Source: an uncultured virus (IMG/VR IMGVR_UViG_3300028215_000034)
Lineage: Duplodnaviria; Heunggongvirae; Uroviricota; Caudoviricetes; Schitoviridae
Length of the DNA: 64,000 nucleotides
IMG/VR virus record: IMGVR_UViG_3300028215_000034
Direction: 5' to 3' (one strand)
The translations under genes were made by a program, and so were the position numbers. Every line of letters begins with the position of its first letter. The stretch's first letter is position 1. Below the pieces are notes generated by a model. The model was not told where the DNA came from. It ran no database searches and saw only the letters and a list, made by a program, of their open reading frames with translations. This document shows, one piece after another, positions 8,328 to 60,681 of the stretch.

Positions 8328-11300
8328 TTAGTTAATAAGACTCTGTGCCATGTGTGTGGTGATTCCCTCATCAACGGCACCCAGATACTCAAAGGCACCG
8401 GCCCCGAGTGGGTTGGTGTCCAATTTATTCCAGAAGCCAGACTCTATCAGGGTTGTGAAGCCTGCAAAGAAGTTAGCAAACAAACCTACTGCCAATGTCC
8501 GGCCTGGGTTATCCCGCATCAGGAACATGATGACCTTCTGGATTCTCATATAATACTTGGTAAACCAAATCATACCCATGTCGTTCATGTACTGAATAAA
8601 CCGGTGTGTCGGTATGTCGTAGTTTACGAAGGCTTCCACCGACAACTGAATAGCTTCCTTCTCTGTCAGTGGGTTCTTCTTCCGGCTAATCATATGCTCG
8701 TACAAAGTGTACCTGGCAATAAAATCACTCAAGTGAGTACCCTGGTACATCAGCTTGTACAGCGGTGTGTCGTGAGCCATGTAGAAAAACTTACCGGTTT
8801 TCTTGACAGCCTCTGGCAACCACTGAGTTTTACTATCTACCTTACGCATCAGTTTAGATTTGTAAGAGTAGTTGTCATCTACGCTATCCACGTCCTCTAC
8901 GATGGTCTGGTACATTCCTGCATCTACCAACTTCTTTACGGGATTGCGCTCCAAAGCATCAGTCAGCTCAATAATCCGAGCATTCAACTCCGGTTGAGTC
9001 TGAGCGTTGGAACCAATGTCACGCATCGTTTCCAGCTTCATCAGCTCATGCAAATCTCGCTGATAACTTATGGCTCCGTTAAAAGCAATACGATGATTCT
9101 TCACTATATCTGTAAGAGGCACGCCCATCCAAACCAACTCACTGACGTTACTGGTGGTGTTACCCAACAAGGTAAAGCCAGTTTTGATGACCAAGAAATC
9201 CTTGATTTCTTTAACCAACTCCTGCCACACGTCTTCTGCCTGACTCACCCGCAATGCCGCTTTTTTACGCATCCCAAATACCGGTGATTCCAATATAGCT
9301 ACAAAGATCTTTCCCATTGCGCCACGTTCATCGGCGTTTTTATCAAAGACTGACGACAGACTATTTTTGCGGTAACCAAAGAACAAATCGACCAGATCCA
9401 CCCGTACCATCATGGCTTCACGACCCCATACTTTACGGATGTCCCGCTTGGTGGCGTCCGGCAATAATTGGTAGATCTCACGAATCTGTGGATCGGTACT
9501 GTTCATGCTAATCTCGATAAACGCATCCGGGCGGCTGAAGCCTTCTTCATTGTATTGCTCATGCAAGGCTTTGATAGCTGTTTCATTGTGAGCCTTGGTG
9601 TTTACCTTATCCACAATGCTACCAGCCATAGAGCCCATCACATCCTGCATACGGTTGTTTCGTTCCAACAGGGTGTCTTTAGTTTCAGCATTCATCATGT
9701 ATTGGTAATTAACCGCCTGACCGTAATTATTCATCAGCGGTACCATCTTCTGTGGAGCTTCTCGACGTGGATCGTAATTTGGATCAGGCTTAAATTGATC
9801 AGCAATCGCCGCTGCTTTATAACGCTTAATGTCTCGTAAAGTGTCTTGACGAAGCTGACCGGTTTGATCCCGAGTCACACTGGCGCCCCGTTTACGGCTA
9901 CCCGTATTGGACGTTATACCGGTTACCCGAGTGTTAAGTCCACCGTCTTCTACCGTGTAAATGCGCTTTTCGCTAGAGGTGTCGGCTGAGTCATTAGGAA
10001 CCAAGGCGCCTTCACGGGCACCACTGCGTACCAGGTTTTTAGCATCTACTCCTTCTGCAATCACCAACTCTTTGTGTTGATTGTAAATCTCTTTGGTGTA
10101 GCCCTTGATGAACAACCCCGGTTTGTTATCAAACAAACTTTCCATGGACCTCTCTTTCATGTTTTTGTGCATCAGCAAGGTCATCTTGATACCGCTGTTA
10201 TTGCCTCGCTGAAGCTCTGTCTTCATGACTTCTGTTAAGAAACCCCGGTCTTTACTGGGGCTGTATTTCAGGGCATACAGTGACGCCAATTTGTCCAGAA
10301 TACCCTCAACCTCGGCGGCCTTGGCCTCGGTAATCTTGCCGGCCTGATCGGTCTCAAACAACCGAGCCAGGTTATACGCATTCTTCATCAGGTTATCTTT
10401 ACGTGCAATATCAGTGACCATGTAATAGCCCAAAGTTTTAGCACCGGTTGACCAGTAATGCCGCTGAGGTCCACTGGCCTGTATCTGCTTCTCGTAGGTC
10501 GCAATGGCTGTATCCAACGCCTTGTCATCCCGAACCAGTTCCAGCAGCTCTGCCTGATTGTCTTTGTCTTTGTCTAACAAAGCGGCCATATCGGTACGCA
10601 ACAGAACCCGAGTAATGGCGTTCATATCCGCTTCAGTCAGGGTTTCCCCGGCTTCAGCGTAACTCTCAAGTACGGTTTTAGCGGTCTGCTCAATAATGGT
10701 TTGACGATCTTGATCGTTTTTCTTACCCATTCGCAGCAATTCATGAGCGGTCAAGTTGGTCTCGTTAGCACCTTTAAACTCAGTAACAACCGAAGAAAGC
10801 AGGCCTTGCCGTTCCTTGAAATTACGGTTACGGACATTCTCCAAGTTGTCAAAAGTAGCCCGTACACGATCACCGGCCACCATACTAACGACAACACCCG
10901 TACCCTCAACCAAACTGTTCTTGGAGTTACGGAAGAATTTGGACTTACCAAACTCGTCTGCCTTGGCTTTCATCCCTTCACTGAGTTTGCTCAATGAACC
11001 TTCAATCGCTGAAGGGACTGCATTTCTATGTCGAGCCAAAGAAGTCAAACGACGAGACTCAATACTCACCAACTGATCCATCAGATCACTGAGCTTCTGG
11101 TCTGCCCGTTGACCGGCATAGGTCTTTGTTAACCGACCGTTAATCAGGTTAAGGAGTCGCTTGAAGATGGCCTTTAGCTGCTCACCCAGCTTCATACCTC
11201 TAAGGCTCTCAGTGTCCCGTGCAGTGGCAACCATCATCTTGCTTTGTAAAGGACGGTACGCCAGGCCCATGGCCGCAAACCGTCCCAGGAAATCCGAAGT

Positions 11301-14300
11301 ACCATCAGCGTTCTGCTTCGGTGTGAAGATAAACCGGTACTGGGCTTCTGCTTCTGCCTGCTCATTGGGAGTGGCCTGTGACCAATCACCGTCGAACATA
11401 TCCTGTGGCTTCAACCGGGTCTTAGTCTCTTTATAAAGTTTGGCCAGTTCACGATAAGCTGCTGTCGAAGAGTTCAATGACGCCTTAACCGTGGCTTCAA
11501 CCTGCTCCAATACAAACGCTTCTTGCTGACTGATCTTGAACGGCTGGCCCATAATCTCGGATGCAAAGGGCAGCTTGCCCATCAGGGAGGTCAGGAACAC
11601 ATCTTCGCTACCGTAGGTTGCACTCTGCTCGGCCTCAGCCTTGTAGGCGCCATAGGGGCCATGGAGCTGTGTAACAATACCACCCAACACCTCTTTCAGG
11701 TGTTCGTTATACGAGGGGTCCAGTGCTTCTGTCTGATACCGGCCCAATGCGTCAAACACTTGCTCCGAGCTGTAGGCTTTCACAACATCAAACGGGTCAG
11801 TACTTTGCTGGTTCTGAGTCTTCTGTGTGCCAGTAGTAGCCACCGTGCGGGCTTCTTTCGCTGCACCAAACAAACCAGTCACGTTAGTAACCAGTACAGA
11901 TAAGCCTCGGGTCTTTGCTTCGTCTTTACGGTTACCAAACAGCAGGCCAGCAATCTTATCAATGAATAACTGCATCCCATCAATAAACTTGTTGCCTTTT
12001 TTAACAGAGGTCTCAAATACTAAATCGTTCAGGACATCTCGCTGGAAGTCCCGGTTAGTCATGCCCCAGGCAATGAATTCATGCAGGTCTGAGACCGCTT
12101 CCCGGTATTTCAGATCCAGAGTTACATCGTCACTGTTGTCGATCGAAGCCTTGGCTTTTTGTCTCAGGTTATCGAGATCGTTAACCAGCTCCCAAGCATC
12201 GCCGCGTTCTGAAACTGGCTTGGCTTGCTCATTGGCTACAATGCTTCCCAGTGCCTGGTGAACCAGTTCGTGCAGCACCAGCTCTGGACTAACGCCTGAG
12301 TGAGTGAAGTCCGGGCTCTTAATACCAATGTGCTCGTTTCCAGTCATCGGCTCATACCAACCCTTAGCGCGGCTTACGCCGCCCTGCGGTAGATCAGTCT
12401 CAGCGGTGTCACGGGTGATGTATCTGACGGGCAGATCGCTTTTCACGGTCTGCTTCAGAAACACCAGCAACTGCCGGTTGGTCTTGTCCAGATTGGTCCC
12501 GGTTGCCCGGAAGCGTTGATCCAGATACCCCATGAGATCCTTAGAGGTCATCTCAGGGTTGCCTTCCATGAACGCGACCATGTCGGTATCGCTGTTGATT
12601 GCCGGTGTGCCAAGCTCGCCATAAGCGGTCTGCCGGGTGCCGTTGTAAACTGAGGCCAGGGCTTCTACTACCTGAGCATTGGCAAGACCACTTAGAGATC
12701 GGTCTGCTGCCAGGGCCAAAGTAGATTGCTGAGCCAACATAGCATCGCGTGCTGTGGTCAGACTTTCCTTCAGTTCAGGGCTGGTGTCTTCTGTTGCCAG
12801 CAACTGATCAATCAACGGCAGAACCGCATGGTTCGGTGCGTGCATAACACTGTTTGTGTTGGCCGGCCGGTTCTGCATACGGGTCAGGATGGCTGACTTC
12901 CAAGTAGCACGGCGCTTAGCCTGATCATTACCTGGAAACACTTTCTCCAATGTGGCATTAATCGACTTCAACGCTGGGTAAGTTTCAGCAATCACTTTCA
13001 AGCGATTGACGCCTTCGCGTTGTGTGGTGTCCCGGGTGCCGGTGTTACGAGCCAAAGTTTCCAGTTCGTTGAGCTTGGTGCTGAACCAATCTTTCAACGT
13101 AGCCGCTATTTCTTGTGGCTCAAAAGTCGCTTCAATATTTCGTGCTTCTGGGGCTGCCGGCAGCTTAGGTGTTTCAGGGTTACCCGTTACGGCAGTAGCG
13201 ATACGTTGGCTCAAGGCCTGCATTTCTGCTGCTTTGGGGCCTATTGATTCAGCACGAACTTGCTCTAATTTATCCAGGGCTTCCTGACGTAACGCATCGG
13301 TTACCTCAAACTCTCCCCCTTCTTGTGCGTATTGATCCAGAAACGCCAGTATGCTCATAGTCTCAAGTTTGGTCATTTCAGCTTGATAAGCCGTTTGCGT
13401 AACGTCTTTCATTACGTAACTGATCCAATCCAGACCGGAAGCCTCAAATAACGCAGTTTCTACTTTATTAAGACGCCCAACATACTCCTCTTCCAATTTA
13501 GAGAATCGTTCCTGTAAAGCAGGGCTTTCCTCAATCATCGAAGCAAACCCACTCAACCCAGATACAGTACGCTCCAGCGTCGCCTTGATTTCCAACGGTA
13601 CTGAAAACGACAACAAGACTTTGTGAGTTGCCTCGTTCAAGTTTTCAGCACCTTTAACTACATCAGCAATACTCAAACCGTTTGCGTCATAAATATTCAG
13701 TGCAGCAAGTTTCTCATAAGCGTAAGCCGAAATGGCACTGTCTGTAGAATGGATCATTAAAACCAATGTCCGTACACCTGGGTCTTCCAAGACCGATTTG
13801 TATCCCTTAGTTTTCATCGATTTGATGTCATTACCATCCGGTGTGTTGGCCGTTATAGATTTACCCAATGCCACTTCTTGGGAATAATTAATGTCTTCAC
13901 TGAGCTTACGACTTTCTTTTGGTAGGAACAGGCCCGCATCCAGATCGTCTTCAACCTGCGACATCGCACTGTGTGTAACCGGTTTGAGGTCTTTTAACTG
14001 TTCCTCAATCTCTGCGATCTGAGTAGGCGACAAGTCTTGTAAGGGCTGAGGGTTAACCTCTCCCCGGTTGTTAGGCTTTTCGCCTCGGGCAGCCAGTTTG
14101 CCCTGCCCAATCAGACTTTCAACTTTCTGCTCTGCCAAGTGTTCAAGCATCGCGGTGTATAGCTGAGCTGAAACCTGGGCACCTTGATTCAATACCTTAC
14201 GGCGCTCCAAGAACACACTAAACATTTCCTCCATAGTGGCTTTAACCGCATCGCCCAGTGTTTTATCAAAACCTAACCTAATAAAAACAAGTTGGGCTTC

Positions 14301-17300
14301 ATTAAATTCGTATTCTTTTGCCTCCTCCAACGTAATGTCAGTAGAGATATTACGGTCTTTATTACGTATCAAATTATTAACCTGTTCTGCCCAGACACGC
14401 ACAGAATCTTGCTTCTGTGCGTCCGTATCATTAGACCTGGCAATGTCAGTTACTTTTCCGTAGGTATCGTGAATAAACTCGTTGAACATACCATTGATGC
14501 CGTTATTTATGGTTTGCCCATACATCATTTGAGTCAGTGGTGGTTTAACCGTATTACGGCCTGAAGAGGTAACTTGATTTTTCTTTTCGTTGAAAAACTC
14601 ATCTTTCATAAACCGGATGGCAGCAGCCGTTGACGCAAATTGTGGTTTAGTCACAACAATCGACTTCATATTAGCGTCCATGACTTTAGCCGTAGACTCA
14701 TACAGGTCTTCAGAACCTACAGCGGATTTATACGTTACAAAGTTTCTGTGATCAGACCCCTGCTCGTAGAAGCCTCCTTTATTGAGAAACGTAAACATTC
14801 CTGATGTTGTGTTCGCAGCGCCCAGCATTAACAACGTCAGCATAGGCCCGTTGGTCACACCATCGACTTCCATCATTACCATGTCAGGATCAAAGGTCTT
14901 CTGACCATTCTTTATCGCTTCTTCCATACGGGCTAAAGCGTGTAAGGCACTCAATGAGTGCATGTTTTGGCCAGCCTGATTAACGGCGTCTCTAATGTTT
15001 TCCTGGTCTGCGGGTAAGAAATCTTCTCCGTTTTGTTGTCTCTTAATAGCAGCCAACGCGGATTGGATGATTCGGCTCTTGAGCTTACGATCCAATTCAA
15101 CCAGTGATCCTTCTGGACCATCCATTGGTTTTTTGTCTGCTTTAATACCCAGGCCCAAAGCCACATTAGCCCGGAACAGTTTATTGAATTTACTGTTTCT
15201 AGCGGTGGATACGTTACCCGCCCATTTAGCCATGCCCATCAACTCCCTGTGCAGTTTACTGTTCTGGGGGTTAACGGTATTGGATAAAAGTCCTGCACGT
15301 TGGGTGATGTACACTTCAGGCATGAAGTAAAACGCCAGGTCATAAGCGTTTAGTGAGTCTGCGCCGTTGTCTTCTACAGACTTAACAAAGTCATCCCAAT
15401 GCTCAATCTCACGCAACAGGCCGTCATTACGTCCCTGAATACTCAAACGCTGTGTTACATGGGCTGAGGCAACATCCTCAATACCTGCGATGGCTTCCCT
15501 AGTGCTACTGTCTAAGCTCTGCCACAAACCATTGAGATGAGTACGTACCTTCCAGGCTCGCTTGGCTTGAGCGTCTTCAATCTTAGCCCTGTGACTAGGG
15601 ATACCTTGAGAGGTTTTCTTAGTCTTTTCCTGAGTAAAGTCTTCAGGCTCAAACGAAGGCTCTTTCAGTCCTGGCTCAACCCCAAAAACTTTATCCAGAT
15701 AACCTTGTGTGTTGCGGGCTCTCTCGCCAATAACCTTGGCCGCGTCTACAGGGTCTTTCTTCGTAGACTCCCAATCCCGAGCCAATCTGATAAAGGGGTG
15801 AGCCGTGTTAGGTGTGTCACCTTCCCGGTTTAATAATGCGTCATTTACTACGGGACGTTCTACCAAACCCTGATCCAGTAGCAACGCTACTACATAGGCT
15901 CCCACGGCACTCTCAAGCTGTGCCTGCGAGTTTACGGGTGCGTCGCTATGGGCTTTCAGACCCAAGACTTTCACCGGCCTCTGACCCAAGCTGTTGATAA
16001 CCACATTGGCCCGAGTGCCTTTATCACCCAACAGATTAGTTTCAACGTCAGTAACATCTGTAGCCCGACGGCGGCCCAATATAGCGTTGATCTGCTCAGG
16101 AGGGTTCATCCAGGTTTTGTTAGCGTTCTCCGCCACGTAGGTCCAGGCCGCATAGCTGATAGCAGTCTTAACATTCTCAGGTAGGGTGCCGTCTTCGTTC
16201 ACCAAAAACTGAACCATGTTTTTATACTTAACATCCACCTTGGTCTGGGCCTTGAAGATAGAGTCCAGTGCCACGTTCCACGCAGTAGCTTTCTCCTGAA
16301 ACTCAGCCATCATGTTGTCACGGGCTGCTGCACGTTCGGTCAAGTCACCACGATCGTCCTGTACAAACTGGCTCAGAAGTGAGCTATCAGCGATCATCAC
16401 AGAGAGGAAGTTCTTTACCTTAACCAGGGGTCGTAACGACACGCTGCCTTCTTTACCGGCTGTTTGGCCAAAGTACGCACCGATCAGGTTTTTACCCCGG
16501 AACTCGTTTGTAGGTAAGCCACCTTTTACCTGGGCTTCTTTACCTTTGATGTTATCCAGGCGCCCAGACTCAATAACCGTCTCCACTACAGAGGCATCAT
16601 ATTCAGTAAGTGCCTGCTCAAAAGCTTCTTTGTTTGTCAGGCCCTCATATTTATTATCCTCAGCCGTGGCATCTGATTTCTTACTGGCTTTAATCTTTGT
16701 GTCAGCCTTAAATCTCAGTGCCTTAAAAGCGCGTTTTTGTACTTCTACTGTCTCAGAAGAAATTGTTGCTGTTTCTGGGTTTGCAGAATTTGCTTCCTCA
16801 ATGACCTCTCCCAGTTCTTCCATGAGCTGAACCAGGAAATTACCTGTCGAGTTACCGTCACCGTATTTAGTAGCACTTTTTCTTGCACGCTCTTCCCGGC
16901 TTCCATCAATGCTGTCGATCTCTGTAGGTGCAACAAACCAGTTTGCAATAAGTGTTTCAAGCTCCGGTTTATATTCCTCTAACACAGCAGGATCACTAAG
17001 TACCTCACCGTATATAGACGCCAAGCGTCCTTGTAAAGTTGCAACATCAGATTCAGAGGGTGCCTTTTCTACATTACCTTTTGGGAACGTAAGGCCCATG
17101 AGTGACATCAGTAAACCAACGTCCATTAACTCGGACTTGAGTTCTTCTGTTACATGAGCGCCCTCAACGGTACTCGCGGTAACCAAGAACTTCTGGTTAA
17201 TACTTGCAATGGTTTCTGCATAGATACCATCAGGTGTCTCAATAACCGGTGCCTCTTCTACAGCCGGGGCTACTGAATTATCTGTTGTAGCTTCAGTGAG

Positions 17301-20300
17301 GTTGCGTAAATAACTTTCAAAATTGGCTTGCCCTTCAGCACTTTGTAAATTGAAAACAGGAATGTTTTTACGGGAAGCCATGTCAATAGCTTGTCCCGTA
17401 CCACCGGTCTTCATGGTTCTTTGTGCTGTATTTTCGGCTCCATCAGGAGTCCACACCAGCACAAAATCAACAGGCGTATCTAAGGTTTCACCAAATAATT
17501 GTTTTGTATTTCTAGCCATCAAATCCAGGCTATAACCTTTAAGGGCGCTCGGTTTAGGGTGTATTTCTTTAGCAATTTGACGTGTCTTATCATTAGCGTC
17601 TGTTGCGTAAAAAATCTGCTTAGTTTTGCTACCACTTTCAAATGCCTTATCAGCCCCTTTTGCACCACCGGATCTCAAAGTGAATCCAAGCTCTTCAAGG
17701 TTATTCGCGTACACACCCCATCAGATCGAGAATTTGTTTTGGGGTTTCTCTGGAACCAATACCCGCATAGGTAAACGAAGCATTACCTGTTTCTTTTTTA
17801 GGTAACGTGTCAAATACAGGAGTTTTAGATTTAGCCGGTGTATCCCCAGCGTATACGTCACTAATAACGGGTACACCTTCAGCAGGCGGTGGTAGCAGGT
17901 CTGGAGTAGTTTCTTGGGTCGCAAACATATCTGGTGTGGCGGTGTCGTACTCCGTGGCTTTTTTGCCAATGTCCGTTAAGAAATCAACAACCTCATCAAT
18001 TTCCGCATTACCGGCTTCATAATCACTATCTTCTTTAAACGCTTTGATGGCTTCTTGAACCGCAGGACTTGGGTGCTTTTCCATAGACTCAAGGTTACCG
18101 CCCAACACATTGGAGGCTTCTAAATGATCTGTGTCTAATTTCTCAGCCAAGTCCTCTACTGCTTCTGTTTCCAAAGACTCGTCTTTTTGGGCTGCGTCGT
18201 AGATGTCTTGTACTTCTCTGTTAGTAGTTTGTAGACCCTTCCATTCACGCAACAGTTTGCGTAGATCTCGCACTCCTGCGTCGTTGGATTTACTAGGCTT
18301 AGCTACAGGTGCGTCAACGTCGTCCCTAACGACAGGATCACCGGTGGGCTCAGCGACAGTTCCTGATTCAACAGGCTCTGCTTGCGCTGGCTCCGTAACC
18401 GGCTCAGCTTTTTTTGTTGCATCTTGCGTTTGGCGTTGGTCGGCTTGTGTCTCATCAATAGCAGTCTCCACAGTAGGTGAGGCAACTTCCGGTTGCTTCT
18501 TTGGTGTAGACGGCTGTGCCAGCCCTATCATGTTATCGACTTCCTGACTGGCGGCAATCAAGGCTTTAGCCTCAGTACGCACAGCTTGAACCAGATTCTT
18601 GGACTTCACGTTAACGACCAGGCCCTGGTTATCAGCCATGTCTTTACCACTGAGTTTATCCGGTGAGATCGACCAGCTACCTTGCGTCAACCCACGTACA
18701 ACCTGCACTGGCTTACCAGTAGACTGAAATTGTTTCATGGCCTGACTCAAGGCTTTAGACTTGTTGTCATGGCCTTCTGAAAAGGCTTTAAGGTCGGCCG
18801 CATACGCCTGGGCCACTTCCACATCCCCTGAACTCAGGGCACTGTTAACCAGTGAACGGTAATCTTGAATACCCCGGTAACCGTCCTCACCTTTGATGAT
18901 GGCGTTATTGGTTCGATTAAGGGACTTGGCATCGTCTTGTTTCTGCATCGAGTCAGCAAAAGAAGTCAGGTAGCGCCTTTGCTCGCCTGACAGACCGTTG
19001 CCGGTGTCTTTAGCCATGGCCTGTGCATCGACTATAGACAAGACATCTGGACTTGCCATGGACTGTGTGACGAGCTTGCCGGCTGCGTCTGCCCGAGCTT
19101 CGGGTGCTACGGCTTCACGGTTTTCGGGATCGCCTACAATACCTGCTGTTTCTTTTAACGCCTCAAGGTCTTCAGTAGCTTCAGTCTGTGTGATTGAATC
19201 GCGGAATTGCTTGAGCGTGTCAAACACTTCCTGACTTTTCTTCAACTGCTCATTAACCACTTTCTGCTTTTTACCGGGAGCTGACTCGGCTTCACTAATA
19301 CGAGCCGTAAGCATGTCAATGTTGCCTTGGATTTCGGCCACCTTAGCGGTATCCGATTCCCCAACCAGCAATTCATTCTGCTTACTAAGTTGACGCTTCT
19401 GACGGGCAACGGCCTCATCAGTTGCACCTTCAGCAGTGGCTTGGCTATCCTTCAAATCAGACTCGGCTGATCTGTACAGTTCTTCTACCTGGGCAATGTT
19501 CTTTGTTCGTTGCTCGGGTGTAGTCGTTTCCTGTTGATTATTAACAATCAGGACACCGGCCGCTTTAGCCAGGTCATAGTTCTTACTTTCAGGATCGGTG
19601 TAAGGCGTGATGTCGTTTGCATCAACGGCTGCTTTAAAAGCATCAGTCTGTGTTTTAATAGCTTCAAGTTTCTTCTTCTTGAAAGCAGTGCCGGCATCAC
19701 CGATCTCTTTTGCAATCGTAGCCGGAGCAGCAAGACTGGTACCAAAGCTGCCGCCCAAAACCAGATCAGCAAAAGTGTTTTCAGTCAGATCTCGATCACC
19801 ACCAATCGCATCATTAGATCCAAATCGGGCACCTACGGTTTCACTAACTTCTTGCGTGCCTTCTGCTGTACCGGATATGCCAACAGTTTTAGTAAACCGG
19901 GTTAAGACGTTGCCTTTAAGGATGCCCTGTAATGGCTTCAGTATGTATGCAGTTGCCATACCACCAGCGCCACCAATTATTGCACCCGGCACAAAAGCAG
20001 CCGCACCGGCTGTTTTAGCTGTTTGACGTTGTGCTTCTTTATGGTCGAGACCTTTATCCAGCAGATCCAGATATAAATCAGACTCTGCTGACAACTCTTC
20101 CGGGCTCATGGCCTTGACGTAATCTTCGGCCTCATTAGCCTGTGAGCCACCGGCTTGTAAACCACCCACCAAGCCCATAGCAATTGAAACCTTAGCAGCA
20201 CTGCCTGCCAGTAACGTAGCGGCCTGGGGTGCAAATTGCCCAAGGACTCCAGCCAGATGACCCATAAAACCTTCAACACTGGCGTTCTCACCCATGGACC

Positions 20301-21137
20301 AGGAAGACGGGTCAAGAGCACTGCCTGTAGGTGTGCTGTCTATCATGGCCTGTTTAAAGTTTTGATCTTGGCTTGAATCGATAGTCTCTGCCATTTCTTT
20401 AGAACATCTTCAGCACTTTGAAACCATTCGCTAGGAGCCGTAACACCGGCATCTGTCAGGAAATCATTAGCTGCACGGGCCGCATCCCCAAGGCCCAGTG
20501 CTTCGATGTCATTAGCAACCGTGTCACCTAATGCCTCAACAAGATCACCAACACCACCAAATGCCGAGCCAATGCCTTTAACAACGCCTCCGGAGACTTC
20601 CTTAACCATGTTGGAGTCTGTACCAAAACCCGCAATTTGATTACCTAATTGCTCCTTAAAGGCGCGAGTCTGTTCAGCTTTTTCTAACGCAATCTTCTTT
20701 TTTCTAGCAGCTTTTGCAACCGCAAATTCTTTGGTCTGTAAAGTGTCACGCACCTGGTCATACTTTGTGGTGTCTATTGCGTTGGTAGCTGCTTCGTAAT
20801 TAGCTTGTTCAAAGTAAGATGACGGATCAAAACCCTTTTTCATAGAAAAAGCGGCCTCACTTTCCTGCTCGGGAAGTGAGGCTTGCTTTTGTTGTTTAGG
20901 TGAGGCATCAACTGGAAACTGTGCTGCAACTTCTGCCTCCATATCGGGCGTAGCTTCAACGGTATTATCAGTCCCAAACCCAGAGTAACCGTAACGACTG
21001 CGTATATTATTTACATCAGCGTACATATCCTTTACGGCTGAAGGATCATTTGATGAGTTAGCAGCAACCAAGGCTTGTAGGCTTTTAGTATTAACTTCGT
21101 CTTCTGCAATCTGCTCCATCGTACGGTAATCTGGCAT
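8328..21137 (-). CDS. Virion-encapsidated RNA polymerase (N4 gp50 homolog), ~4,270 aa, split into three ORFs by two compensating 1-nt indels
   Basis: Motif A EVDGVTNG (~14850-14870), motif B RNTVKPPLTQMMYG (~14518-14560), motif C NIYDA (~13685) and NPQxSKLxRE. The total span of 12,810 nt is divisible by 3. Breaks fall in an A-run (~20397-20401) and a G-run (~17716-17719). No Cys found in the reconstructed frame. Confidence 0.93.
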
Positions 21138-21146
21138 ACATCAACC

Positions 21147-22847
21147 TTATGAAGTGCGGGGACGTGGGAATTCTGGAATAGCCATTGATTGGTCAGGTGT
21201 AGCGCCGGCCCGCTTTAAACGATCTGCTCGGCTGACAGCCTCTTCATTACTTATTGGCTCACTACTATTTGATTTGATATCTTCAAGAATTTCTTGTTTT
21301 GCCGCTGCCCTTGCCTCTGCCCTTGCCGTGCCAGGACCGGGCGTGCTCCGCTTCGCCGTTGCCTCTGCCCTTGCCGTTGCCGTTGCTTTTGCCGTTGCCC
21401 TTGCCGTGGATCTTTCGAGCATACTAATGGTTGACGCCAACCGATCATTACGATCAGCCGTACCACCACCAATACCGGCGTTGCGAAGTGCGGAAGCATT
21501 TATACCATCCACCATTTTGTTGTAGTCATCAAAGCGTTGTTTTGCGGCTACCAAATCGGTAGTTTCAACCAAATTTTGCAGGGCTTCATCAAACTCCGTA
21601 TCAATCTCAAAGAAGTCATCACCAACGCTTTGTGCAGCCATTTTAATAAGTTGTGGGGGTACCTTGATGAAGTTACCGTCGTCGAATACATCGATACCTT
21701 TAGTACTGCCGGCAGCAACATAATCCGCAATAAAGTCTTCTACTTTGTCACGGTTATTTGTGAAGTTAGAACCTTCCTGGGTAAGCTCATCAACCATAGT
21801 AGAAGCAACATCCAACGGGCTACCTACGTCCTCATCACTGCCTTTCCAGACGTTATTTTCGATTTCAAAGGCCTTACCAGCACGCTTAATAGCTGTATCA
21901 CGTTCACTCTTCTCTCTGGGTGCCAGTTGTTCTGTCCGACCTGCATAATAATCAGATGTTATTTTGGCACGTTCTGCCTGAGTCAGATCTGGGTACTGCT
22001 CAATCACAGACTGAGTTAGCTGATCAGCAGTCTGTGTGTCACTGCTTACACCGATTCCTTGACGTTTTACTGCTTCACTAAACAACTTTATATCAGCAGG
22101 GTTGGCACCTTCATAAACAACCTGACCGCCTTCACCTACAGATAGGCCAAATTTCTTGGCGGTATTTTGAAAACTAATGCCCATTTGTTCGTCAACAGAT
22201 TCCTGATCGGCTAGTGTATTATTGATAGCCGTATTAATATCTTCGGTTTTTTGAAGGGCATCTTTTTCACGCTTCCACTCGGCGCGGATAATGTCACGCT
22301 TATCCTTGGCAAACTCACGATCTTTTTTTCTAATAATCTCAGCAGCTCGGTAGTCAGCTACACCGGTAATCTGCTGTTGTAATTGTCCAGCGTTAGCAAA
22401 GTCATTATTATCTTTAATGGCTTGAGCGCCTTCCATGTCACGAGCAGCGATTCTTTCATTAAACCTGTTTAGAGCATCGCGGTTACCGAACGCTTTCTCC
22501 GATGCGGCATACTCCCGGTTAGCTGTTTGGTCTTTCCGTAGCCCCGTCACCCGGTCTGTAATAGCGTCAGAATCTGTCTTGTCACGATTGATCAAGTTAC
22601 CGAACTCGCTACGCATGTTGGCCACTTGGCCCGACTCTTGAGCCGCTGCCAGTTCCTCGGGTGAACCGAACTGCGACAGTTGATCCATGAACGCCTGTGT
22701 GTTGCGATCGGTACGGCCTTTCTCGAAGGTATCCTTACCTTGTCGAATGGCATCAACGCCTTCTGTAAGGGACTCACCTGCACGACCCAGTGTTTCAGAC
22801 ACACCTTCAAAGTTAGGGCCGTTTACGTTTTTCCAAGTAATAGGCAT
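21147..22847 (-). CDS. Ejection/structural protein (N4 gp51 homolog)
   Basis: Starts MPITWKNV as gp51-family proteins do, Cys-free, directly upstream of vRNAP. Confidence 0.75.
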   Translation of the reverse strand: MPITWKNVNGPNFEGVSETLGRAGESLTEGVDAIRQGKDTFEKGRTDRNTQAFMDQLSQFGSPEELAAAQESGQVANMRSEFGNLINRDKTDSDAITDRVTGLRKDQTANREYAASEKAFGNRDALNRFNERIAARDMEGAQAIKDNNDFANAGQLQQQITGVADYRAAEIIRKKDREFAKDKRDIIRAEWKREKDALQKTEDINTAINNTLADQESVDEQMGISFQNTAKKFGLSVGEGGQVVYEGANPADIKLFSEAVKRQGIGVSSDTQTADQLTQSVIEQYPDLTQAERAKITSDYYAGRTEQLAPREKSERDTAIKRAGKAFEIENNVWKGSDEDVGSPLDVASTMVDELTQEGSNFTNNRDKVEDFIADYVAAGSTKGIDVFDDGNFIKVPPQLIKMAAQSVGDDFFEIDTEFDEALQNLVETTDLVAAKQRFDDYNKMVDGINASALRNAGIGGGTADRNDRLASTISMLERSTARATAKATATARAEATAKRSTPGPGTARAEARAAAKQEILEDIKSNSSEPISNEEAVSRADRLKRAGATPDQSMAIPEFPRPRTS

Positions 22848-22848
22848 A

Positions 22849-23322
22849 TTATTTGATCCCGTTTTGCTTCATGTATTCGTCCGGGCTCACGTACTGGTCT
22901 GGGTTCTCAGTGTATCGACGCTTTTGACGATCTCTCATTTGTGTATTAGTGGTTTGCTTCTGGGCGCCGTAGTTCTTGTTGAACGATTGCTTTTGGAAGT
23001 CCAACTGATCCTTGGCAAGGCCAAGTTGCTTCATGCCCATGAAACCTTGTAGACCAGCAGACACGCCGCTTAATGCCAGGTTACCCCAGCCGTCTTCACC
23101 CAGCATGTTGTCCATAAAACCGCCGTCCCCTTTAGGAGAATCAGTAAATTGGGTTAGGTCCAACTGACCTGGCCTCGCAGTATTTCCAACAGGACTGGCA
23201 GTAATATTTCCATAACCAAAACCAGGCTTCATAAAGTCTGGTGTTGTCATACCACCTCTGAGCCCGCCACTTGGGTTAGGAACACCAGGACCAGGACTAA
23301 CGTAATTTGGATTAAATGCCAT
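22849..23322 (-). CDS. Virion protein (N4 gp52 homolog)
   Basis: Gly-rich segment then GLAKDQLDFQKQSFNKNYGAQKQTTNTQMRDRQ. Synteny. Confidence 0.8.
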   Translation of the reverse strand: MAFNPNYVSPGPGVPNPSGGLRGGMTTPDFMKPGFGYGNITASPVGNTARPGQLDLTQFTDSPKGDGGFMDNMLGEDGWGNLALSGVSAGLQGFMGMKQLGLAKDQLDFQKQSFNKNYGAQKQTTNTQMRDRQKRRYTENPDQYVSPDEYMKQNGIK

Positions 23323-39476: not shown

Positions 39477-39755
39477 ATGGCTGTACTTAACAAGAAAACG
39501 TCTGGTGTGCCGACTGGTGCCGTGTACATCGGGCGTGGTTCCAAGTGGGGCAACCCATTTGTAATTGGTAAAGACGGTGACCGCAACTCGGTCTGTGAGA
39601 AGCACCGTGATTACCTCTGGCAACAGCTAGAGTCCGGTGAGATCACAAAGGCTGATCTCTTAACACTCAAGGGCAAAGACCTTGTGTGTTTCTGTGCGCC
39701 TCAGCGTTGCCACGGGCACACGCTTGAGCGTGCTATTACATGGGCTGCTGAGTAG
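39477..39755 (+). CDS. DUF4326-family protein
   Basis: VYIGRGSKWGNPF...LKGKDLVCFCAPQRCHG signature. Confidence 0.9.
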   Translation: MAVLNKKTSGVPTGAVYIGRGSKWGNPFVIGKDGDRNSVCEKHRDYLWQQLESGEITKADLLTLKGKDLVCFCAPQRCHGHTLERAITWAAE

Positions 39756-41420: not shown

Positions 41421-41523
41421 GGTAACTGCTTGCTTACACTCAGGTAATGTAACGAAATTAAATAAGCTATCGCTTTAAAATGCCCAATTCTGGGTGTCTG
41501 TCCTATTACTTTGGAGTTTTATT

Positions 41524-41856
41524 ATGGGTTTTCAAAAGACCTCTACCGCTAATAATGTTGAACCTTCTGCCCGTCCACAGGCTGCTCCTGTTACTACTGG
41601 TCAGAACAGTCGCCGTAATCCGGCTGATGCTTACGTCAATATCTCCGTGCGTACCACGGATGATGCCCATGCCAAAGTTGGTGCTATCTCGCTAAATGCA
41701 GATAAGCCGCTGGATAAGCAGATACTGGATCACATCGTTGATTCCGTTGATGAAGGTACGCCGATTGAAGAAGTCATGGCACAACTGGCAGGGCGCCTCG
41801 TGTTGGACTTCAAGCGTGCTGACGGTAACAACGGTAAGAAACTAGATCTGGGTTAA
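41524..41856 (+). CDS. ssDNA-binding RNAP II cofactor (N4 gp2 / LUZ7 Drc-like)
   Basis: Disordered N-terminus, then ADAYVNISVRT..D....VGAISL.AD..L..QI...RLVL...LDL, resembling Drc. Lies just before the RNAP II genes. Confidence 0.7.
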   Translation: MGFQKTSTANNVEPSARPQAAPVTTGQNSRRNPADAYVNISVRTTDDAHAKVGAISLNADKPLDKQILDHIVDSVDEGTPIEEVMAQLAGRLVLDFKRADGNNGKKLDLG

Positions 41857-43749: not shown

Positions 43750-45004
43750 ATGGATTTCTTCACTGGCTGGCAGTACCTGTTAATTGATTGTGCAAACAAC
43801 TTTGGTAAGGACAAGCTTGTATTTGAAGACCGTATCCAGTGGGCTACGGACAACTTGGATCACCTTGAGGAACTGGCCGTAGGTGAGGAATGGAAAGACA
43901 AAACCTTTGTACCTAAAGGCCGTTGGCGCCATACGCAAAGCTCAAGCCGGCAAGCCAACCGGCCACATGGTCGGCTTTGATTCGGTGAATTCGGGAATGC
44001 AGATCATGTCTACCCTCACTGGCTGCATTGCAGGCGCCACAGCCACAGGCTTAGTGGACCCAGACAAACGGGCTGATGCCTATACGGAATGCACTGACAT
44101 CATGAGTAGGATACTGGGTGTCCTCATGACGCACGACAGGGACGACGTAAAGGCAAGCTGTATGACCGTTTTGTATGGCTCAAAGAACGAGCCTAAAAAG
44201 ATGTTCGGTAAGGACACACCTGAGTTGCAAGCGTTCTATCAAGCCATGTGGCAACTGGCACCGGGAGCCTGTGAGCTGCTACAAGACCTGATCGATTCAT
44301 GGCAACCGTTTGCCTTGGCTCATGAATGTGTATCACCTGATGGCTTCCATGCCAAGAACAAAGTCATGCAGAAAGTCGAGGGTGTCAGGATTGAGGTAGA
44401 TGAGTTGGATCACGCCACATTCACCTACGAGTACTACATCAACGAAGGCTCGGAAAGCGGTTTGTCAAATGTAGCAAACATGATCCAGCAAGGTGATGCT
44501 TACGTCTTGCGGTGTCTGGTGCGTCGATGCAACTACGACCCTGAGCTTATGCAGTGGGCTTCCCATCACATTGAGGCGCTTCTATTGGAGCGTCACATGT
44601 GCCTTTCAATCCAATCCAGTGATGACTGGCTCAACGGTGATTTCTTGCGTCTTCGCAACCGGTACGAGGCCAGCCAAATGCCTGACATTCGGATTTTAAA
44701 TTACGCACAGGAATGGGAATTACGAGCCATGACTACAGCCCACCTCAAGGGATTGGCAGGCATTATCAACCGGATGTTGGAACATAAACCATTTCCGGTC
44801 ATACCGATCCATGACGACTATAAATCCCACGCCAACAACATGAATCACCTACGTCAGCACTACATCGACATCTTCGCAGGGATGGCCGATAGCACCATGC
44901 TGGATGACATCCTCAGCCAGTTGCACGGCACGCCGGGAATCTTCCCTAAGAAATCCACCAACCTTGCAGCCAAGATCCGTGGTTGTAATTACGCGTTGTC
45001 CTAA
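43750..45004 (+). CDS. RNA polymerase II subunit 2 (N4 gp16 homolog), apparent 1-nt insertion near 43900
   Basis: YLLIDCANNFGKDK start, motif A FDSVNSGMQI, motif B R...K...M...YG, motif C IHDDY. Removing one A from the ACAAAACC run joins the two ORFs (WKDKPLYLKAV). Confidence 0.92.
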
Positions 45005-46168: not shown

Positions 46169-47278
46169 ATGTCTGTTTACACCCAAACCCTGTACCAGAA
46201 CCATGGCTCTGCTATTGGTTACTGGAAAGGCAGCGTTGATCTAAATGGCTACGTCACTATTGAGTACGCCAAGAAGCTGGACGGTAAGCCGGTACAAAAA
46301 CACTATCAAGCCTTTGCCAAGAACGTAGGCCGTGCTAACGCGACTACACCGTATGAGCAAGGTGCTTCAGAGGTAGCCAGTAAAGCCCGACTCAAAATGG
46401 ACAAAGGGTATGTGGAGACTGTAGAAGAAGCCACTGAACCCAGCACCAACAGTCTTGGGCTGCTAAAACCCATGCTGGCCACGCCCCTGGAGAAAATCAA
46501 ACCAGAAAAGATTGACTGGGCTAATGCCTTTGTTCAACCCAAGCTGGACGGTCACAGGGCACTGTTTAATGGCGGTGTGCTGTACAGCCGGCAAGGTAAG
46601 GTACTGGATCTTCCGTACATCACTGAAGCCATCACAGCAGCGGGTATCGACCACCTGCATTTGGACGGTGAGTTGTACATTCACGGCAAAACCCTTCAGG
46701 AAATGTCGAGGCTGATCAAGAAGCATCGCCCTGAGTCCCTGGACATTGAGTATCACATCTATGACCAGATACTGGACTTGCCCTTCCAAGACCGCATCAT
46801 TGACTTGTGCAACACCGTTCCGCAGTGGCCTAAAGGGACACGACTAAAAGCGGTACCCACGTACAGTGTGTTTTCCATGGAAGATGTCATGGAACACCAC
46901 ACAGCGTACCGGAACCAGAACTACGAAGGCACTATGCTGCGCTTTGGTTCTGACGACTACCAACATGGTAAACGGTCTCGCACCCTACTGAAACTTAAAG
47001 AGTTCCAGGACGAAGAGTTCATGATCATGCGTGTCACAGAAGGGAAACCTTATGTCACAGAAGAAGGCACTTTCCGGGTACCAATCTACGAGTGTCAATA
47101 CAAACCAGGAGGCCCAACCTTCACGGTAACAGCGCCGGGTAATATGCACGAAAAGCACGCGCTATGGGTAGATAGTGATGCTACCTGCGGAAAGTTCCTC
47201 ACAATTAAATTCCATTACTACTCCGCAGACGGCATTCCCCAACTGCCTATCGCACTTCGCTTTCACGAAACCATTTAA
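46169..47278 (+). CDS. ATP-dependent DNA ligase
   Basis: PMLA, motif I QPKLDGHR, LDGELY, YHIYD, YEGTMLR, LLKLK. Confidence 0.92.
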   Translation: MSVYTQTLYQNHGSAIGYWKGSVDLNGYVTIEYAKKLDGKPVQKHYQAFAKNVGRANATTPYEQGASEVASKARLKMDKGYVETVEEATEPSTNSLGLLKPMLATPLEKIKPEKIDWANAFVQPKLDGHRALFNGGVLYSRQGKVLDLPYITEAITAAGIDHLHLDGELYIHGKTLQEMSRLIKKHRPESLDIEYHIYDQILDLPFQDRIIDLCNTVPQWPKGTRLKAVPTYSVFSMEDVMEHHTAYRNQNYEGTMLRFGSDDYQHGKRSRTLLKLKEFQDEEFMIMRVTEGKPYVTEEGTFRVPIYECQYKPGGPTFTVTAPGNMHEKHALWVDSDATCGKFLTIKFHYYSADGIPQLPIALRFHETI

Positions 47279-51769: not shown

Positions 51770-54434
51770 GTGCGTAACCTCATATTTGAAAACGCGGATA
51801 ACCACCCGATTGCACTGCTCATCAAAGAGAATGCTTTCAACAAACAAGAGCTAATTGCTAATTATCTCACCCCATTAACCGAAGCCGGAATCACTCAGGA
51901 CAATATTATTGCATTGAGTCTGGCCTACAACGCCGCAGGCAAAGCACCGGTTAAGTACATCAAGGCTTACCTGGAAGACCTCATGCCCTCGTTAGGGGGC
52001 GTAGGCGTTCAGTACATTTACTGTGCTGACGCCGCTTACTTCAAGGCTCTTACTAAAGCCTCCAAAGCTGAACCTCACTTGGGCTATGTCCTGCCTTGTA
52101 AAATGATAGGTTACGAGCATATGCAGGTCATTTTGGGCGTGAACCATAAAAGCCTACTCTACAGCCCAGCCAATGAGCCCAAGCTCGATATGTCAATGAA
52201 CACCTTGATCACCGAGTTTGCCGGCAACTACGTGCCACCGGGTAAGGACATTATCCACAAGGCCTTCTACCCGGATGACCTGGCCACCATCAAAGACATG
52301 CTGACCCAGCTTATGAGCTGTGATCGACTCACCTGTGACATAGAAACTGGCTCACTGGACTTTGACAAAGCCGGCGTAGGTACCATCACCTTCTGCTGGA
52401 ACAAGCACGAAGGCCTGGCGTTTGCCTGTGATTACGTAGCCAACCCTGACGGTATTGATGAAGACGGTCAGTATGGCACGCTCGTTCATAACCCAGAGGT
52501 GAAAGCCCTACTCAAGGACTTCTTTGAAAACTATACCGGCACCTTGATCTGGCACAACAGCCCCTACGACACCAAGATCCTCATCTACGAGCTGTGGATG
52601 GAACACTTGCTGGATACCAAAGGTCTGCTGACCGGTCTGGACATATTGCACAAGCGGCTCCAGGACACAAAGATCATCACGTATCTAGCCACCAACACCA
52701 CGGCTGGTAACAGTCTGGCTCTCAAGGATCTGGGTCATGAGTTTGCCGGCGCCTATGGTATGGGCGATAACATCAAGGACATCCGGCGCATTCCGTTGCC
52801 GCAGCTACTGGAATACAACCTCACGGACGGGTTATGTACCTGGTTCGTGTTCGACAAATATTACCTAATAATGGTCGAGGACCAACAAGAAGATCTGTAT
52901 TACGGCTTGATGTTGCCGAGCCAAAAAGTAATCACCCAGATCGAACTCTCAGGTATGCCACTGAATCCTGAACAGGTTCAAGTTGCCCGACAAAAACTTG
53001 AGCATATTGTTCAGCAGGAGCAAGCCAAATTTGTCAACCTACCGTTGATCAAGCGGTTGGAGGATAAGCTGACGAATATGGCCTTTAAGAAGGACTTCGA
53101 GGATCGCAAGGCCAAAGCCAAGCACCCCGATAAGATCCTTCCCAAGAACCGGGCCACGTTCCCGCAGTTTGAGTTCAATCCAGGCAGCGGGCCTCAGCTT
53201 CAGATTCTCCTGTACGAAGAAATGGGGCTACCGGTCGTGGATAAAACCAAGACCAAGCTGCCCGCCACTGGAGGAAAGACACTTGAAAAGTTGGCTAATC
53301 ATACTACTGATCCTGTCTATCTGGAGCTTATGCAAGCTCTCATCAACCATTCACACGCGGATAAGATTCTCACGACGTTTATACCGGCATTTTGAGAAAG
53401 CCACCGACAAAGGCGAAACCATCGTCTACTTGCACGGCTCGTTCAACTTAGGCGGTACCAAGTCCGGCAGACTTTCGTCTTCCGATCCCAACTTGCAGAA
53501 CATTCCATCAGGCTCAGTCTACGGTAAGTTGATCAAGAGTTGCTTTGAGGCGCCCGTAGGCTGGTTGTTCGCCGGTGCTGACTTCCGCAGTCTGGAAGAT
53601 TACGTATCGGCATTAACCACCAAAGACCCAAACAAATTAAAAGTCTACACCGATGGCTATGACGGCCACTGTTTACGTGCCTTTAGTTATTTCCCGGAAC
53701 GTCTGCCAGGCATTGTCAATACAGTCGAGTCCATCAACTCCATCGAACACAAGTTCAAAGACATTCGTCAATTATCCAAAACTCCAACCTTCGCATTAAC
53801 GTACCAGGGCACCTTTATCACCTTGATGAAGAACCTAGGCTTTGATGAGGCAACCGCCAAGCAGATCGAGAGGAACTACCACGAACTGTATCAAGTCTCG
53901 GATGCCTGGGTACAAGCCAAACTGGATGAAGCAAGCCGCACCGGTTATGTGACATTAGCCTTTGGCTTACGCCTGAGAACGCCTCTGTTGGGCCAAACCC
54001 TACGGGGCAAACGCAGTACACCTTACGAGGCACAAGCTGAAGGACGCACTGCTGGCAACGCTCTCGGGCAAAGCTACGGTCTACTCACAAACCGGTCAAT
54101 GAATGCCTTCATGGATCGAGTATGGAACAGCCGGTACCGGTATGACATCAAACCTGTAGCGATGATCCATGACGCAAACTACATACTTATCAAAGACAAC
54201 ATTGAGGTAGTGGAGTGGGTCAATAACGAACTGATTAAAGCCATGGAATGGCACGACCTACCAGAGCTGTATCACCCTACTGTGAAGATCGGCGCTGCAC
54301 TGGATGTGTTCTATCCTAACTGGGCCTCACCTTGCACTCTCACCAACTACGCCGACAAGAAGGAGATCCGTGCTACGTGTGCGGCCTTTCTGGGAAAAAG
54401 TTGGCGGATAAACAAAAGGAAGCAGCATGAATAG
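51770..54434 (+). CDS. Family A DNA polymerase (N4 gp39 homolog), apparent 1-nt insertion at ~53390
   Basis: Exonuclease CDIET and HNSPYD, polymerase TKSGRLSSSDPNLQN, ADFRSLE, RQLSKTPTFALTY, IHDA. Removing one T from GCATTTTGAG gives AFEKATD in frame. Confidence 0.93.
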
Positions 54435-60480: not shown

Positions 60481-60681
60481 ATGTCATGGATGGACTGGTG
60501 CGGGCATTGCGCGCTGGTCGGGATCCTCACCATCTTTTCGACAGCGATAATAGATTGGGAGATACTTAGAGCGGCGGGGGTGTTTCTGCTTATTCCACTC
60601 TACCCGATAGCCCTCCTTGGCCTGCTCTGCAAGCTGGACGATATGCTAACCAGCTTTGTGCGGGGATGGCGAAAGCGCTAA
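60481..60681 (+). CDS. Small membrane protein
   Basis: Two hydrophobic segments. Its stop overlaps the convergent polyvalent gene's stop. Confidence 0.5.
   Translation: MSWMDWCGHCALVGILTIFSTAIIDWEILRAAGVFLLIPLYPIALLGLLCKLDDMLTSFVRGWRKR

What the first reader, a model, noticed from the sequence alone, without database searches (positions are those of the whole stretch)
17346..17775. SLOG/DprA-like domain inserted into a ~4,270-aa virion RNA polymerase
Seen: once one extra G (17716-17719) is removed, the vRNAP frame reads FTYAGIGSRETPKQILDLMGVYANNLEELGFTLRSGGAKGADKAFESG...LMARN..QLFG...DFVLVWTPDG...GGTGQAI.MA....IPVFNL, between low-complexity linkers and upstream of the polymerase domain. Established: this motif set is the SLOG (SMF/DprA/LOG) Rossmann-like fold, found as stand-alone genes in many lytic phages and implicated in ssDNA or nucleotide binding. 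N4 vRNAP is about 3,500 aa, is injected with the DNA and relies on host SSB, and I do not know of a SLOG domain in it. Inference: the injected polymerase has become a polyvalent protein delivering a nucleotide-binding module at infection, either as a built-in ssDNA cofactor or as a counter-defence activity against nucleotide/NAD signalling. The ORF track hides it because the frameshift cuts it in two. The domain is also Cys-free like the rest of the protein (VLVWT where I recall ICWT in free-standing homologs), consistent with a long-standing fusion.
Basis: partly seen in the sequence, partly recalled or inferred. Interest (0 to 1): 0.75.

Follow-up and report, generated by a model that had tools for sequence, protein, structure and literature searches.

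The report
Swappable SLOG cassette in phage polymerase
A salt-lake phage carries an intact nucleotide-binding domain inside the giant RNA polymerase that such phages inject with their DNA, at a slot where near-identical phages carry a different small domain or nothing, so it is probably an exchangeable, ready-made tool against host defences, though its activity is untested.

Summary
Confirmed, with one reversal. Both frameshifts are assembly errors (contigs of 4 of 4 and 3 of 4 runs), giving one 4,269-aa, cysteine-free N4-type virion RNA polymerase. It holds an intact SLOG domain (PHROG 768, E 9e-44; SLOG fold; 39 of 39 family-invariant residues kept) in the linker before the polymerase domain. 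The fusion is not long-standing here: a clean in-frame SLOG-less allele coexists in 4 of 4 runs; a 92-95% identical contig has DUF7831 (possibly macro-like) in the same slot; 71%-identical relatives have it empty. Its closest SLOG relatives (73%) ride on polymerases only 16-17% identical. A second optional module with MazG-like motifs follows. The fusion recurs: 12 of 68 SLOG-bearing giant proteins are N4-type polymerases, 34 carry the crAss-type motif; NADAR and DUF4326 are frequent partners. Best reading (0.55): an injected counter-defence module binding ADP-ribose-type nucleotides; an ssDNA cofactor is less likely (0.2). N4 polymerases are known polyvalent proteins; I found no paper reporting SLOG in them. 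The scan noted similar cassettes earlier on crAss-type polymerases. New variant of a known kind; function untested.

The parts
8328..21137 (-). N4-type virion RNA polymerase gene, one ORF of 4,269 codons once two assembly indels are discounted; no Cys
   Evidence: PHROG 2206; N4 vRNAP chains in PDB E 1e-66; indels from contigs; length
17716..17719 (-). Homopolymer assembly error (one base too many) that splits the SLOG domain
   Evidence: 1 base left out in 4 of 4 runs at full depth
20402..20403 (-). Second assembly error (one base missing) near the N-terminus
   Evidence: base put in by 3 of 4 runs, 1 without cover; present in L001 and L092
17262..17865 (-). Optional SLOG cassette, about residues 1092-1292; replaced in frame by 9 codons in the SLOG-less allele
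   Evidence: joint 17261 to 17866 with 27 letters between in 4 of 4 runs; same junction in L001; GC3 61 of 200 against 1810 of 3592
17346..17775 (-). SLOG core (residues 1122-1264): GIGSR, SGGAxGAD, HP, MARNxxQ, PVDFV, GGTGQA, IPVxN
   Evidence: PHROG 768 E 9e-44; 39 of 39 near-invariant positions kept; fold of a 63%-identical homologue
17776..17829 (-). N-terminal PxFDxLP extension typical of the virion-fused SLOG clade
   Evidence: flanks of 13 fused homologues; loose motif in 90 of 94 long and 52 of 120 short homologues
16581..17243 (-). Module 2, a second optional all-helical domain (residues 1299-1519) with ExxD and EExxE motifs in permuted order; MazG-like identity only suggested
   Evidence: absent from L002 and L090; relatives in other giant proteins; model pLDDT 92.9; fold searches inconclusive; weak hints
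16570..16579 (+). 10-bp direct repeat, second copy at 17239-17248, flanking module 2 (codes the PVIE/TVIE linker word)
17911..18303 (-). Helical linker segment upstream of the cassette that is itself dropped or replaced in some alleles
   Evidence: joint skipping 393 bases in 3 of 4 runs; missing in L092, present in L002 and L090
14847..14870 (-). Catalytic ExDGxxxG motif of the N4-type polymerase domain (residue 2090)
   Evidence: motif as defined in PMC10654107
12258..12272 (-). HExxH motif of the MPTase metallopeptidase domain
   Evidence: MPTase always fused to N4-like RNAPs per PMC5512222

Best explanation
The linker between the membrane-anchoring N-terminal domain and the polymerase domain is an exchange slot for small cysteine-free cargo domains. 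In this allele it holds a SLOG domain taken laterally from another giant virion protein. The polymerase is packaged and threaded into the host (shown for N4, inferred here); the linker places the cargo on the cytoplasmic side at the DNA entry site before any phage gene is expressed (inferred from the N4 model). The domain binds an ADP-ribose-type nucleotide in the conserved SLOG pocket (inferred), most likely as a trap or processing site for a host immune signal or an ADP-ribose adduct, and so blunts NAD+/ADP-ribose-based defence in the first minutes. Alleles with SLOG, with DUF7831 or with neither coexist because hosts differ in their defences (coexistence shown, cause inferred). Shown: fusion, fold, intact residues, polymorphism, lateral origin, partners. 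Not shown: packaging, ligand, activity, benefit.
For: Three states of one slot among 92-99% identical genomes. Partners in the same polypeptide among the 120 listed longer homologues: NADAR 19, DUF4326 18, SF1 helicase 12, DUF7831 7, AlkB-like 6 (counted from the table); an N4-type polymerase with NADAR-like plus SLOG (P0126). Viral SLOGs are predicted to act on ADP-ribose derivatives and co-occur with Macro, NADAR, DUF4326 (PMC9503650). A SLOG of the same fold binds 3'cADPR in Thoeris (7uxs, Z 9.8). The phage has a free-standing DUF4326 early gene and no second SLOG copy in the window. Pocket residues kept 39 of 39. Cys loss tracks residence in giant proteins. N4 linker 907-1006 is flexible, and RNAP and CTD are modelled as refolding in the cytoplasm (PMC13434306).
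Against: No ligand or activity is known for PHROG 768 in the papers I could search. Best fold matches are DprA (Z 12.9, 12.2), an ssDNA binder, above ThsA. The LOG catalytic motif is absent (0 of 306), so hydrolysis by the LOG route is unsupported, and only about 4 polymerase copies per virion (N4) make a weak stoichiometric sponge. The macro-like nature of DUF7831 is weak here (hhalign score 17.7, above 30 of 30 shuffles but no better than its score against the SLOG profile, 18.5). Helicase and AlkB partners fit DNA handling as well as signal handling. Host and its defences are unknown.
Confidence: 0.55

Rival explanations
1. DprA-like ssDNA cofactor: the domain binds extruded promoter hairpins or incoming DNA and stands in for host SSB.
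For: Top fold hits and PHROG name are DprA; N4 vRNAP needs host SSB (PMC13492108); jumbo-phage DprA/Smf copies were proposed as ssDNA binders (PMC7824862); SF1 helicases are common partners.
Against: Dispensable within one population and exchangeable for an unrelated domain; about 145 aa with five strands against a nine-stranded DprA domain whose monomeric mutant binds weakest (PMC3950713); far below DprA cut-offs (18.3 of 29.6 bits; 17.2 of 191 for a homologue); net charge +2; also found on the unrelated crAss-type polymerases and between Pol and CTD.
Confidence: 0.2
2. Sensor: the domain senses an NAD+/ADP-ribose derivative and tunes the tethered polymerase or protease rather than removing the signal.
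For: PMC9503650 proposes this for sporadic SLOG fusions to nucleic-acid enzymes; LOG catalytic motif absent; vRNAP is allosterically controlled by its CTD.
Against: Position is free (8 upstream of Pol, 4 between Pol and CTD among 12) and acquisition looks recent, so co-evolved allosteric contacts are unlikely.
Confidence: 0.12
3. Neutral passenger that recombined into a tolerant linker.
For: Flexible linker; alleles without it are abundant.
Against: 39 of 39 near-invariant residues kept; repeated independent fusions to two unrelated polymerase classes; it is the deeper contig in 4 of 4 runs.
Confidence: 0.1
4. Assembly artefact or real stop separating the parts.
For: The window is indel-prone.
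Against: One contig spans 17254-17902, across both cassette ends, with the single gap, in 4 of 4 runs; 12 intact homologous fusions.
Confidence: 0.02

Closest known systems
Coliphage N4 vRNAP gp50 (PDB 9PNR, 11FW; PMC13434306, PMC13492108) and Litunavirus/Pseudomonas vRNAPs
   Same: NTD - flexible linker - T7-like Pol - MPTase/CTD; ExDGxxxG; gene position before ejection and head genes; Pol part 33% identical to Pseudomonas N4-like phages.
   Different: 4,269 aa against 2,842-3,820 aa in reference genomes (PMC10654107); linker 1 carries two folded optional domains.
Polyvalent proteins of phages (Iyer et al. 2017, PMC5512222)
   Same: Injected giant protein with N4-like RNAP, MPTase and variable effector domains.
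   Different: Listed partners of N4-like RNAP are ART, lysozyme, PBECR; 'SLOG', 'NADAR', 'MazG', 'DUF4326' do not occur in the main text. Allelic swapping within one population is not in the passages seen.
Free-standing phage 'DprA-like' proteins, PHROG 768 (viral SLOG of PMC9503650)
   Same: Same family; 1,203 GenBank phage records match, including N4-like phages Pokken, C121, ort11, RPP1.
   Different: Small separate genes with a near-invariant Cys; none of the 60 best or 60 spread rows lies in a polymerase gene.
DprA/Smf (PF02481; PDB 4LJR, 3MAJ)
   Same: Best fold match (Z 12.9, rmsd 4.6, 141 aligned); GSR and SGxAxGxD motifs align.
   Different: Much shorter, below family cut-offs, no SAM or RecA-loading context.
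Thoeris ThsA SLOG domain (PDB 7UXS) and LOG phosphoribohydrolases
   Same: Same fold (Z 9.8; LOG 9.3-10.3); nucleotide pocket motifs.
   Different: No sirtuin partner; LOG PGGxGTxxE motif absent (0 of 306); on the phage side.

Membership tests
SLOG superfamily | Rossmann-like three-layer fold with five-stranded sheet | tested here: met
   AF2 model of homologue P0191 (63% identical), pLDDT 96.6, five strands; top 15 VIA-align rows are DprA, MCP, LOG-like, ShosA, ThsA, YpsA, Z 12.9-8.9
PHROG 768 phage DprA-like family | Profile match over the domain and conserved motifs | tested here: met
   E 9.3e-44; 39 of 39 near-invariant columns
DprA/Smf | Score above PF02481 / TIGR00732 cut-off | tested here: not met
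   18.3 of 29.6 bits; no NCBIfam hit for P0004, 17.2 of 191 for P0191
DprA/Smf | Dimer-dependent ssDNA binding and RecA loading | not testable with these tools
   needs assay; requirement from PMC3950713 passages
LOG phosphoribohydrolase | PGGxGTxxE motif with catalytic Glu | tested here: not met
   0 of 306 aligned sequences; GGTGQA in 280 of 306; motif from PMC4979012
Thoeris ThsA/STALD sensor | Fusion to a sirtuin effector | tested here: not met
   no sirtuin hit in the protein
Thoeris ThsA/STALD sensor | Binding of cADPR isomers | not testable with these tools
   fold likeness only
YpsA-like / YAcAr SLOG clade | Placement in that clade by profile | tested here: inconclusive
   no Pfam hit other than weak PF02481 at E up to 0.05; YpsA structure Z 9.3; one GenBank homologue is labelled 'YspA SLOG family'
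N4-type virion RNA polymerase | ExDGxxxG motif, homology of Pol and CTD to N4 gp50, giant Cys-free ORF in the late module | tested here: met
Polyvalent protein | N4-like RNAP plus MPTase plus variable effector domains in one chain | tested here: met
   HExxH, SLOG and module 2, variable among relatives
Polyvalent protein | Packaged in the virion and injected | not testable with these tools
   inferred from N4
MazG-like all-alpha NTP pyrophosphatase (module 2) | EExxE and ExxD metal-binding motifs | tested here: inconclusive
   E38, E142, E143, E146 invariant in 14 of 14 but in permuted order; PHROG NTP-pyrophosphohydrolase E 0.045 in 2 of 14 members
MazG-like all-alpha NTP pyrophosphatase (module 2) | MazG fold | tested here: inconclusive
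   four-helix bundle without a MazG row; Atlas rows for the two halves are PRA-PH and MazG clusters, both under the bar
Macrodomain (DUF7831 in L092) | Macro fold / profile likeness | tested here: inconclusive
   PF25176 E 5e-28; hhalign to 4 phage macro proteins probability 1.2%, score 17.7; no PDB hit; not folded

The most novel reading that the evidence does not exclude
The vRNAP linker is a hypervariable counter-defence locus under balancing selection, and the SLOG allele is a virion-delivered decoy or hydrolase for TIR-derived cyclic ADP-ribose signals: the fold bacteria use to sense the signal, turned against them and injected before gene expression, shared laterally between N4-type and crAss-type polymerases, next to a circularly permuted MazG-like alarmone hydrolase.
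Probability: 0.25. Interest if true: 0.85.

Novelty: new variant of a known kind. Interest (0 to 1): 0.6.

Why it matters
PHROG 768 is in more than a thousand phage records and has no tested function; its label 'DprA-like' may mislead. A natural set of near-isogenic alleles (SLOG, DUF7831, empty) at one injected slot makes the function directly testable and points to ADP-ribose-type defence. It also shows that the N4 polymerase linker tolerates folded 150-220-aa cargo through the ejection channel, which bears on how polyvalent proteins evolve and on what a phage can deliver before transcription.

Tried and rejected
No genome held for the window; megablast to GenBank phages gave no match; no vRNAP relative in GTDB genomes, so no host clue. 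Pfam missed the window's vRNAP pieces altogether. Foldseek gave no SLOG hit at E up to 0.001 (best DprA 1.6e-3); VIA-align was needed. Module 2: Atlas features blank, Pfam/NCBIfam blank, PDB sequence and fold searches blank, tblastn to phages blank at E 10, a permuted profile found no free-standing MazG-like gene in the loci held (best E 1.3). DUF7831: no paper names it. L001 and L002 records have no SLOG gene elsewhere, but they are 48% and 40% complete, so this shows nothing. Joints 16579 to 17838/17873 (depth about 8, 1 run each) suggest an allele lacking both modules but are weak at 90% likeness and may come from a related species. The SLOG tree is a quick tree (careful search unfinished) with half of the crAss-type and a third of the short rows; no clade test was run. 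Contig depth is not a cell share: the 59-72% figure is rough. No complex prediction was run. Rejected: long-standing fusion; LOG-type hydrolase; real stop.

Full report
Setting. The window is most of an N4-like (Schitoviridae) phage genome: two-subunit RNAP, DNA polymerase, primase, SSB, portal, terminase, major head protein and a giant virion RNA polymerase. No GenBank phage matches at DNA level; the polymerase core is about 33% identical to Pseudomonas N4-like phages. Twenty of 20 listed runs hold the stretch, 16 labelled salt lake metagenome.

Observation. The vRNAP gene is called as three ORFs (21137-20343, 20394-17701, 17714-8328). Contigs of four independent runs leave out one base at 17716 (4 of 4, full depth) and put one in behind 20402 (3 of 4; one without cover); L001 and L092 also carry the second base, and L092 reads open across it. 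The gene is therefore one ORF of 4,269 codons with no Cys, longer than the 2,842-3,820 aa of reference N4-like vRNAPs (PMC10654107, passages). The read-through domain matches PHROG 768 at E 9.3e-44. A model of a 63%-identical homologue (the window's own read-through was not folded) has pLDDT 96.6, and its top 15 structural matches are SLOG-superfamily proteins: DprA Z 12.9, molybdenum-cofactor carrier 12.4, ShosA 10.8, LOG 10.3, ThsA SLOG bound to 3'cADPR 9.8, YpsA 9.3. All 39 columns that are at least 90% invariant among 305 homologues are kept.

Position. N4 residue 1197 aligns to residue 568 of the third ORF; counting back, the N4 polymerase start (1007-1008) falls near residue 380 (inference). 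The cassette thus lies in linker 1, which in N4 is a 100-residue low-complexity tether (907-1006) between a membrane-bound NTD and the polymerase, which is modelled as refolding in the cytoplasm (PMC13434306: abstract, section 6, first part of the discussion, passages; PMC13492108: first of five parts).

The slot is polymorphic. In 4 of 4 runs a second contig joins 17261 to 17866 with 27 other letters between: an in-frame allele in which about 200 codons are replaced by 9. Depths with and without SLOG are 28.4/19.7, 21/8.5, 30.3/18.9 and 364/139 (59-72%; a rough measure). L001 (97-99% identical) is that SLOG-less allele on a 36-kb contig. L092 (92-95% identical) replaces window 18336-17267 with another domain, DUF7831 / PHROG 2072 (E 5e-28), Cys-free and of GC3 0.28, followed by the same VEEAPVIET linker; loose ends in three of the four runs match L092 upstream of it. 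L002 (3,785-aa frame) and L090, both 71% identical in the Pol core, have neither SLOG nor the next module. So of 4 distinct close relatives found (L001, L002 = L091, L090, L092), 0 carry SLOG.

Gain, not loss. The cassette has GC3 61 of 200 against 1810 of 3592 in the rest of the gene outside module 2 (p 4e-8), lower than all 68 sliding windows. Its closest relatives (73%, 72.5%, 67%: P0125, P0126, P0134) sit on polymerases 15-17% identical in the core, on the other side of the deepest split of the Pol tree, while the 71.5% sister has none. In a quick tree the domain falls in a supported set of 30 rows made only of giant proteins or their fragments (rows subsampled, see Tried and rejected).

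Recurrence. Among 68 proteins of 1,721-5,478 aa with this domain, 12 are N4-type polymerases with core and CTD, 8 with SLOG before the core and 4 between core and CTD, the two linkers of the N4 structure; 34 of the 66 tested carry the GxD[FY]D[IV]D motif that I take as crAss-type; the rest are other giant Cys-poor proteins, some with LPD38 or virion-protein hits. In IMG/VR, 43 of the 80 best loci have it in a frame of 900 aa or more. In GenBank phages 1,203 records match; none of the 120 rows seen (60 best, 60 spread) is annotated as a polymerase; the rest were not seen. Other N4-type linkers hold NADAR-like (P0126), DUF7831 (P0173, P0315), an SF1 helicase (P0321) or a transglutaminase-like stretch (P0150).

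Module 2 (16581-17243). Flanked by a 10-bp direct repeat, found in 18 representatives, of which 12 of 16 examined match the N4-type core; P0134 has it before SLOG, in reverse order. It folds confidently as a helical bundle with invariant E38, E142, E143, E146. ExxD before EExxE reads like a circularly permuted MazG (family motif recalled). Support is weak and fold searches are silent. A phage MazG-like protein, Atd1, removes (p)ppGpp and blunts TIR defence (bioRxiv 10.1101/2022.06.09.495361, passages), which would fit.

Mechanism. In LOG enzymes Ser19, Arg99 and the GxGT turn hold AMP and Glu122 is catalytic (PMC4979012, passages). By motif comparison (not a residue-level superposition) this family keeps the Ser, Arg and GGT but has GGTGQA in place of GTxxE (280 and 0 of 306): a nucleotide pocket without LOG chemistry. 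Partners point to ADP-ribose handling: NADAR 19 and DUF4326 18 of the 120 listed longer homologues, against helicase 12 and AlkB-like 6. Iyer et al. 2022 (PMC9503650, passages) predict that viral SLOGs sense or degrade cADPR-type signals and call them typically stand-alone, with sporadic fusions to HTH, HNH, exonuclease, SF1 helicase and guanylate kinase; RNA polymerase is not in that list. Phage NADAR and macro proteins counter DarT systems (10.1101/2024.07.11.602962, listing only; PMC13309987, passages). Against this: DprA is the best fold match, jumbo-phage copies were proposed as ssDNA binders (PMC7824862, passages), N4 packs only about 4 copies, and the macro-like nature of DUF7831 is unproven here. 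A DprA role is weakened by small size, dispensability, free position and exchange for an unrelated domain (PMC3950713, passages; ThsA SLOG does not bind DNA, PMC7272460, passages). I put ADP-ribose-type counter-defence at 0.55, ssDNA helper 0.2, sensor 0.12, passenger 0.1.

What is known. N4-like RNAPs are established polyvalent proteins with MPTase, ART, lysozyme and PBECR partners (PMC5512222, passages). Searches for SLOG or DprA with virion RNA polymerase, vRNAP, N4-like, Schitoviridae, DUF4326 or NADAR listed no paper describing this fusion; I saw listings and the passages named, not all texts. The one supplement file of PMC9503650 held as text had no hit; figures and the 2017 supplements were not seen and could show the architecture; most subscription journals are outside the library. 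Earlier AI notes of this scan describe similar cassettes on crAss-type polymerases and other inserts in N4-type ones; they are leads, and I confirmed only that SLOG occurs on proteins with the crAss-type motif.

Verdict. Real, in frame, recurrent and swappable; a new variant of the polyvalent-protein theme with an unusually clean natural allele series. Interest 0.6.

Noticed in passing
window 60678-63999 (-): End of a different polyvalent protein (ART-PolyVal E 4e-32, LPD38 E 2e-39; PHROG 616) in three consecutive pieces, GC 54% against 48%; probably indel errors and possibly a second virus joined to the contig.
   Followed up: partly
window 51770-54434 (+): DNA polymerase A is split by a frameshift near 53390; likely another assembly indel, not checked against reads. 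RNAP2 (43883-45004) also lacks the first 44 profile positions.
   Followed up: no
window 39477-39755 (+): Free-standing DUF4326 early gene (E 8e-25), a frequent fusion partner of this SLOG family elsewhere.
   Followed up: partly
window 19521-20914 and 23121-23265: Further variant joints in the runs: a divergent NTD segment (X17, depth 52; long loose end in X4) and two variants in the small ejection-protein gene (4 of 4 runs); 12-nt insertion at 20502 in 2 of 4 runs.
   Followed up: no
window 21299-21420: Short tandem repeat near the 3' end of the gene upstream of the vRNAP, with a 6-nt length variant in one run.
   Followed up: no
window 41494-41856 (+): Early gene matching PHROG 6271, labelled 'toxin' (E 8e-12); window 46169-47278 encodes an ATP-dependent DNA ligase.
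   Followed up: no
P0137 / L008, L035, L030: N4-type vRNAPs that appear split into two ORFs, with SLOG on a piece separate from the Pol or CTD piece; real split or assembly error not checked.
   Followed up: no
P0322: 201-aa stand-alone relative of module 2 that begins with a signal-peptide-like stretch.
   Followed up: partly
L083 2501-2830 (MN988484.1): Unannotated SLOG-family match in Rhizobium phage RHph_Y60 between an endonuclease gene and a dCMP deaminase gene.
   Followed up: partly
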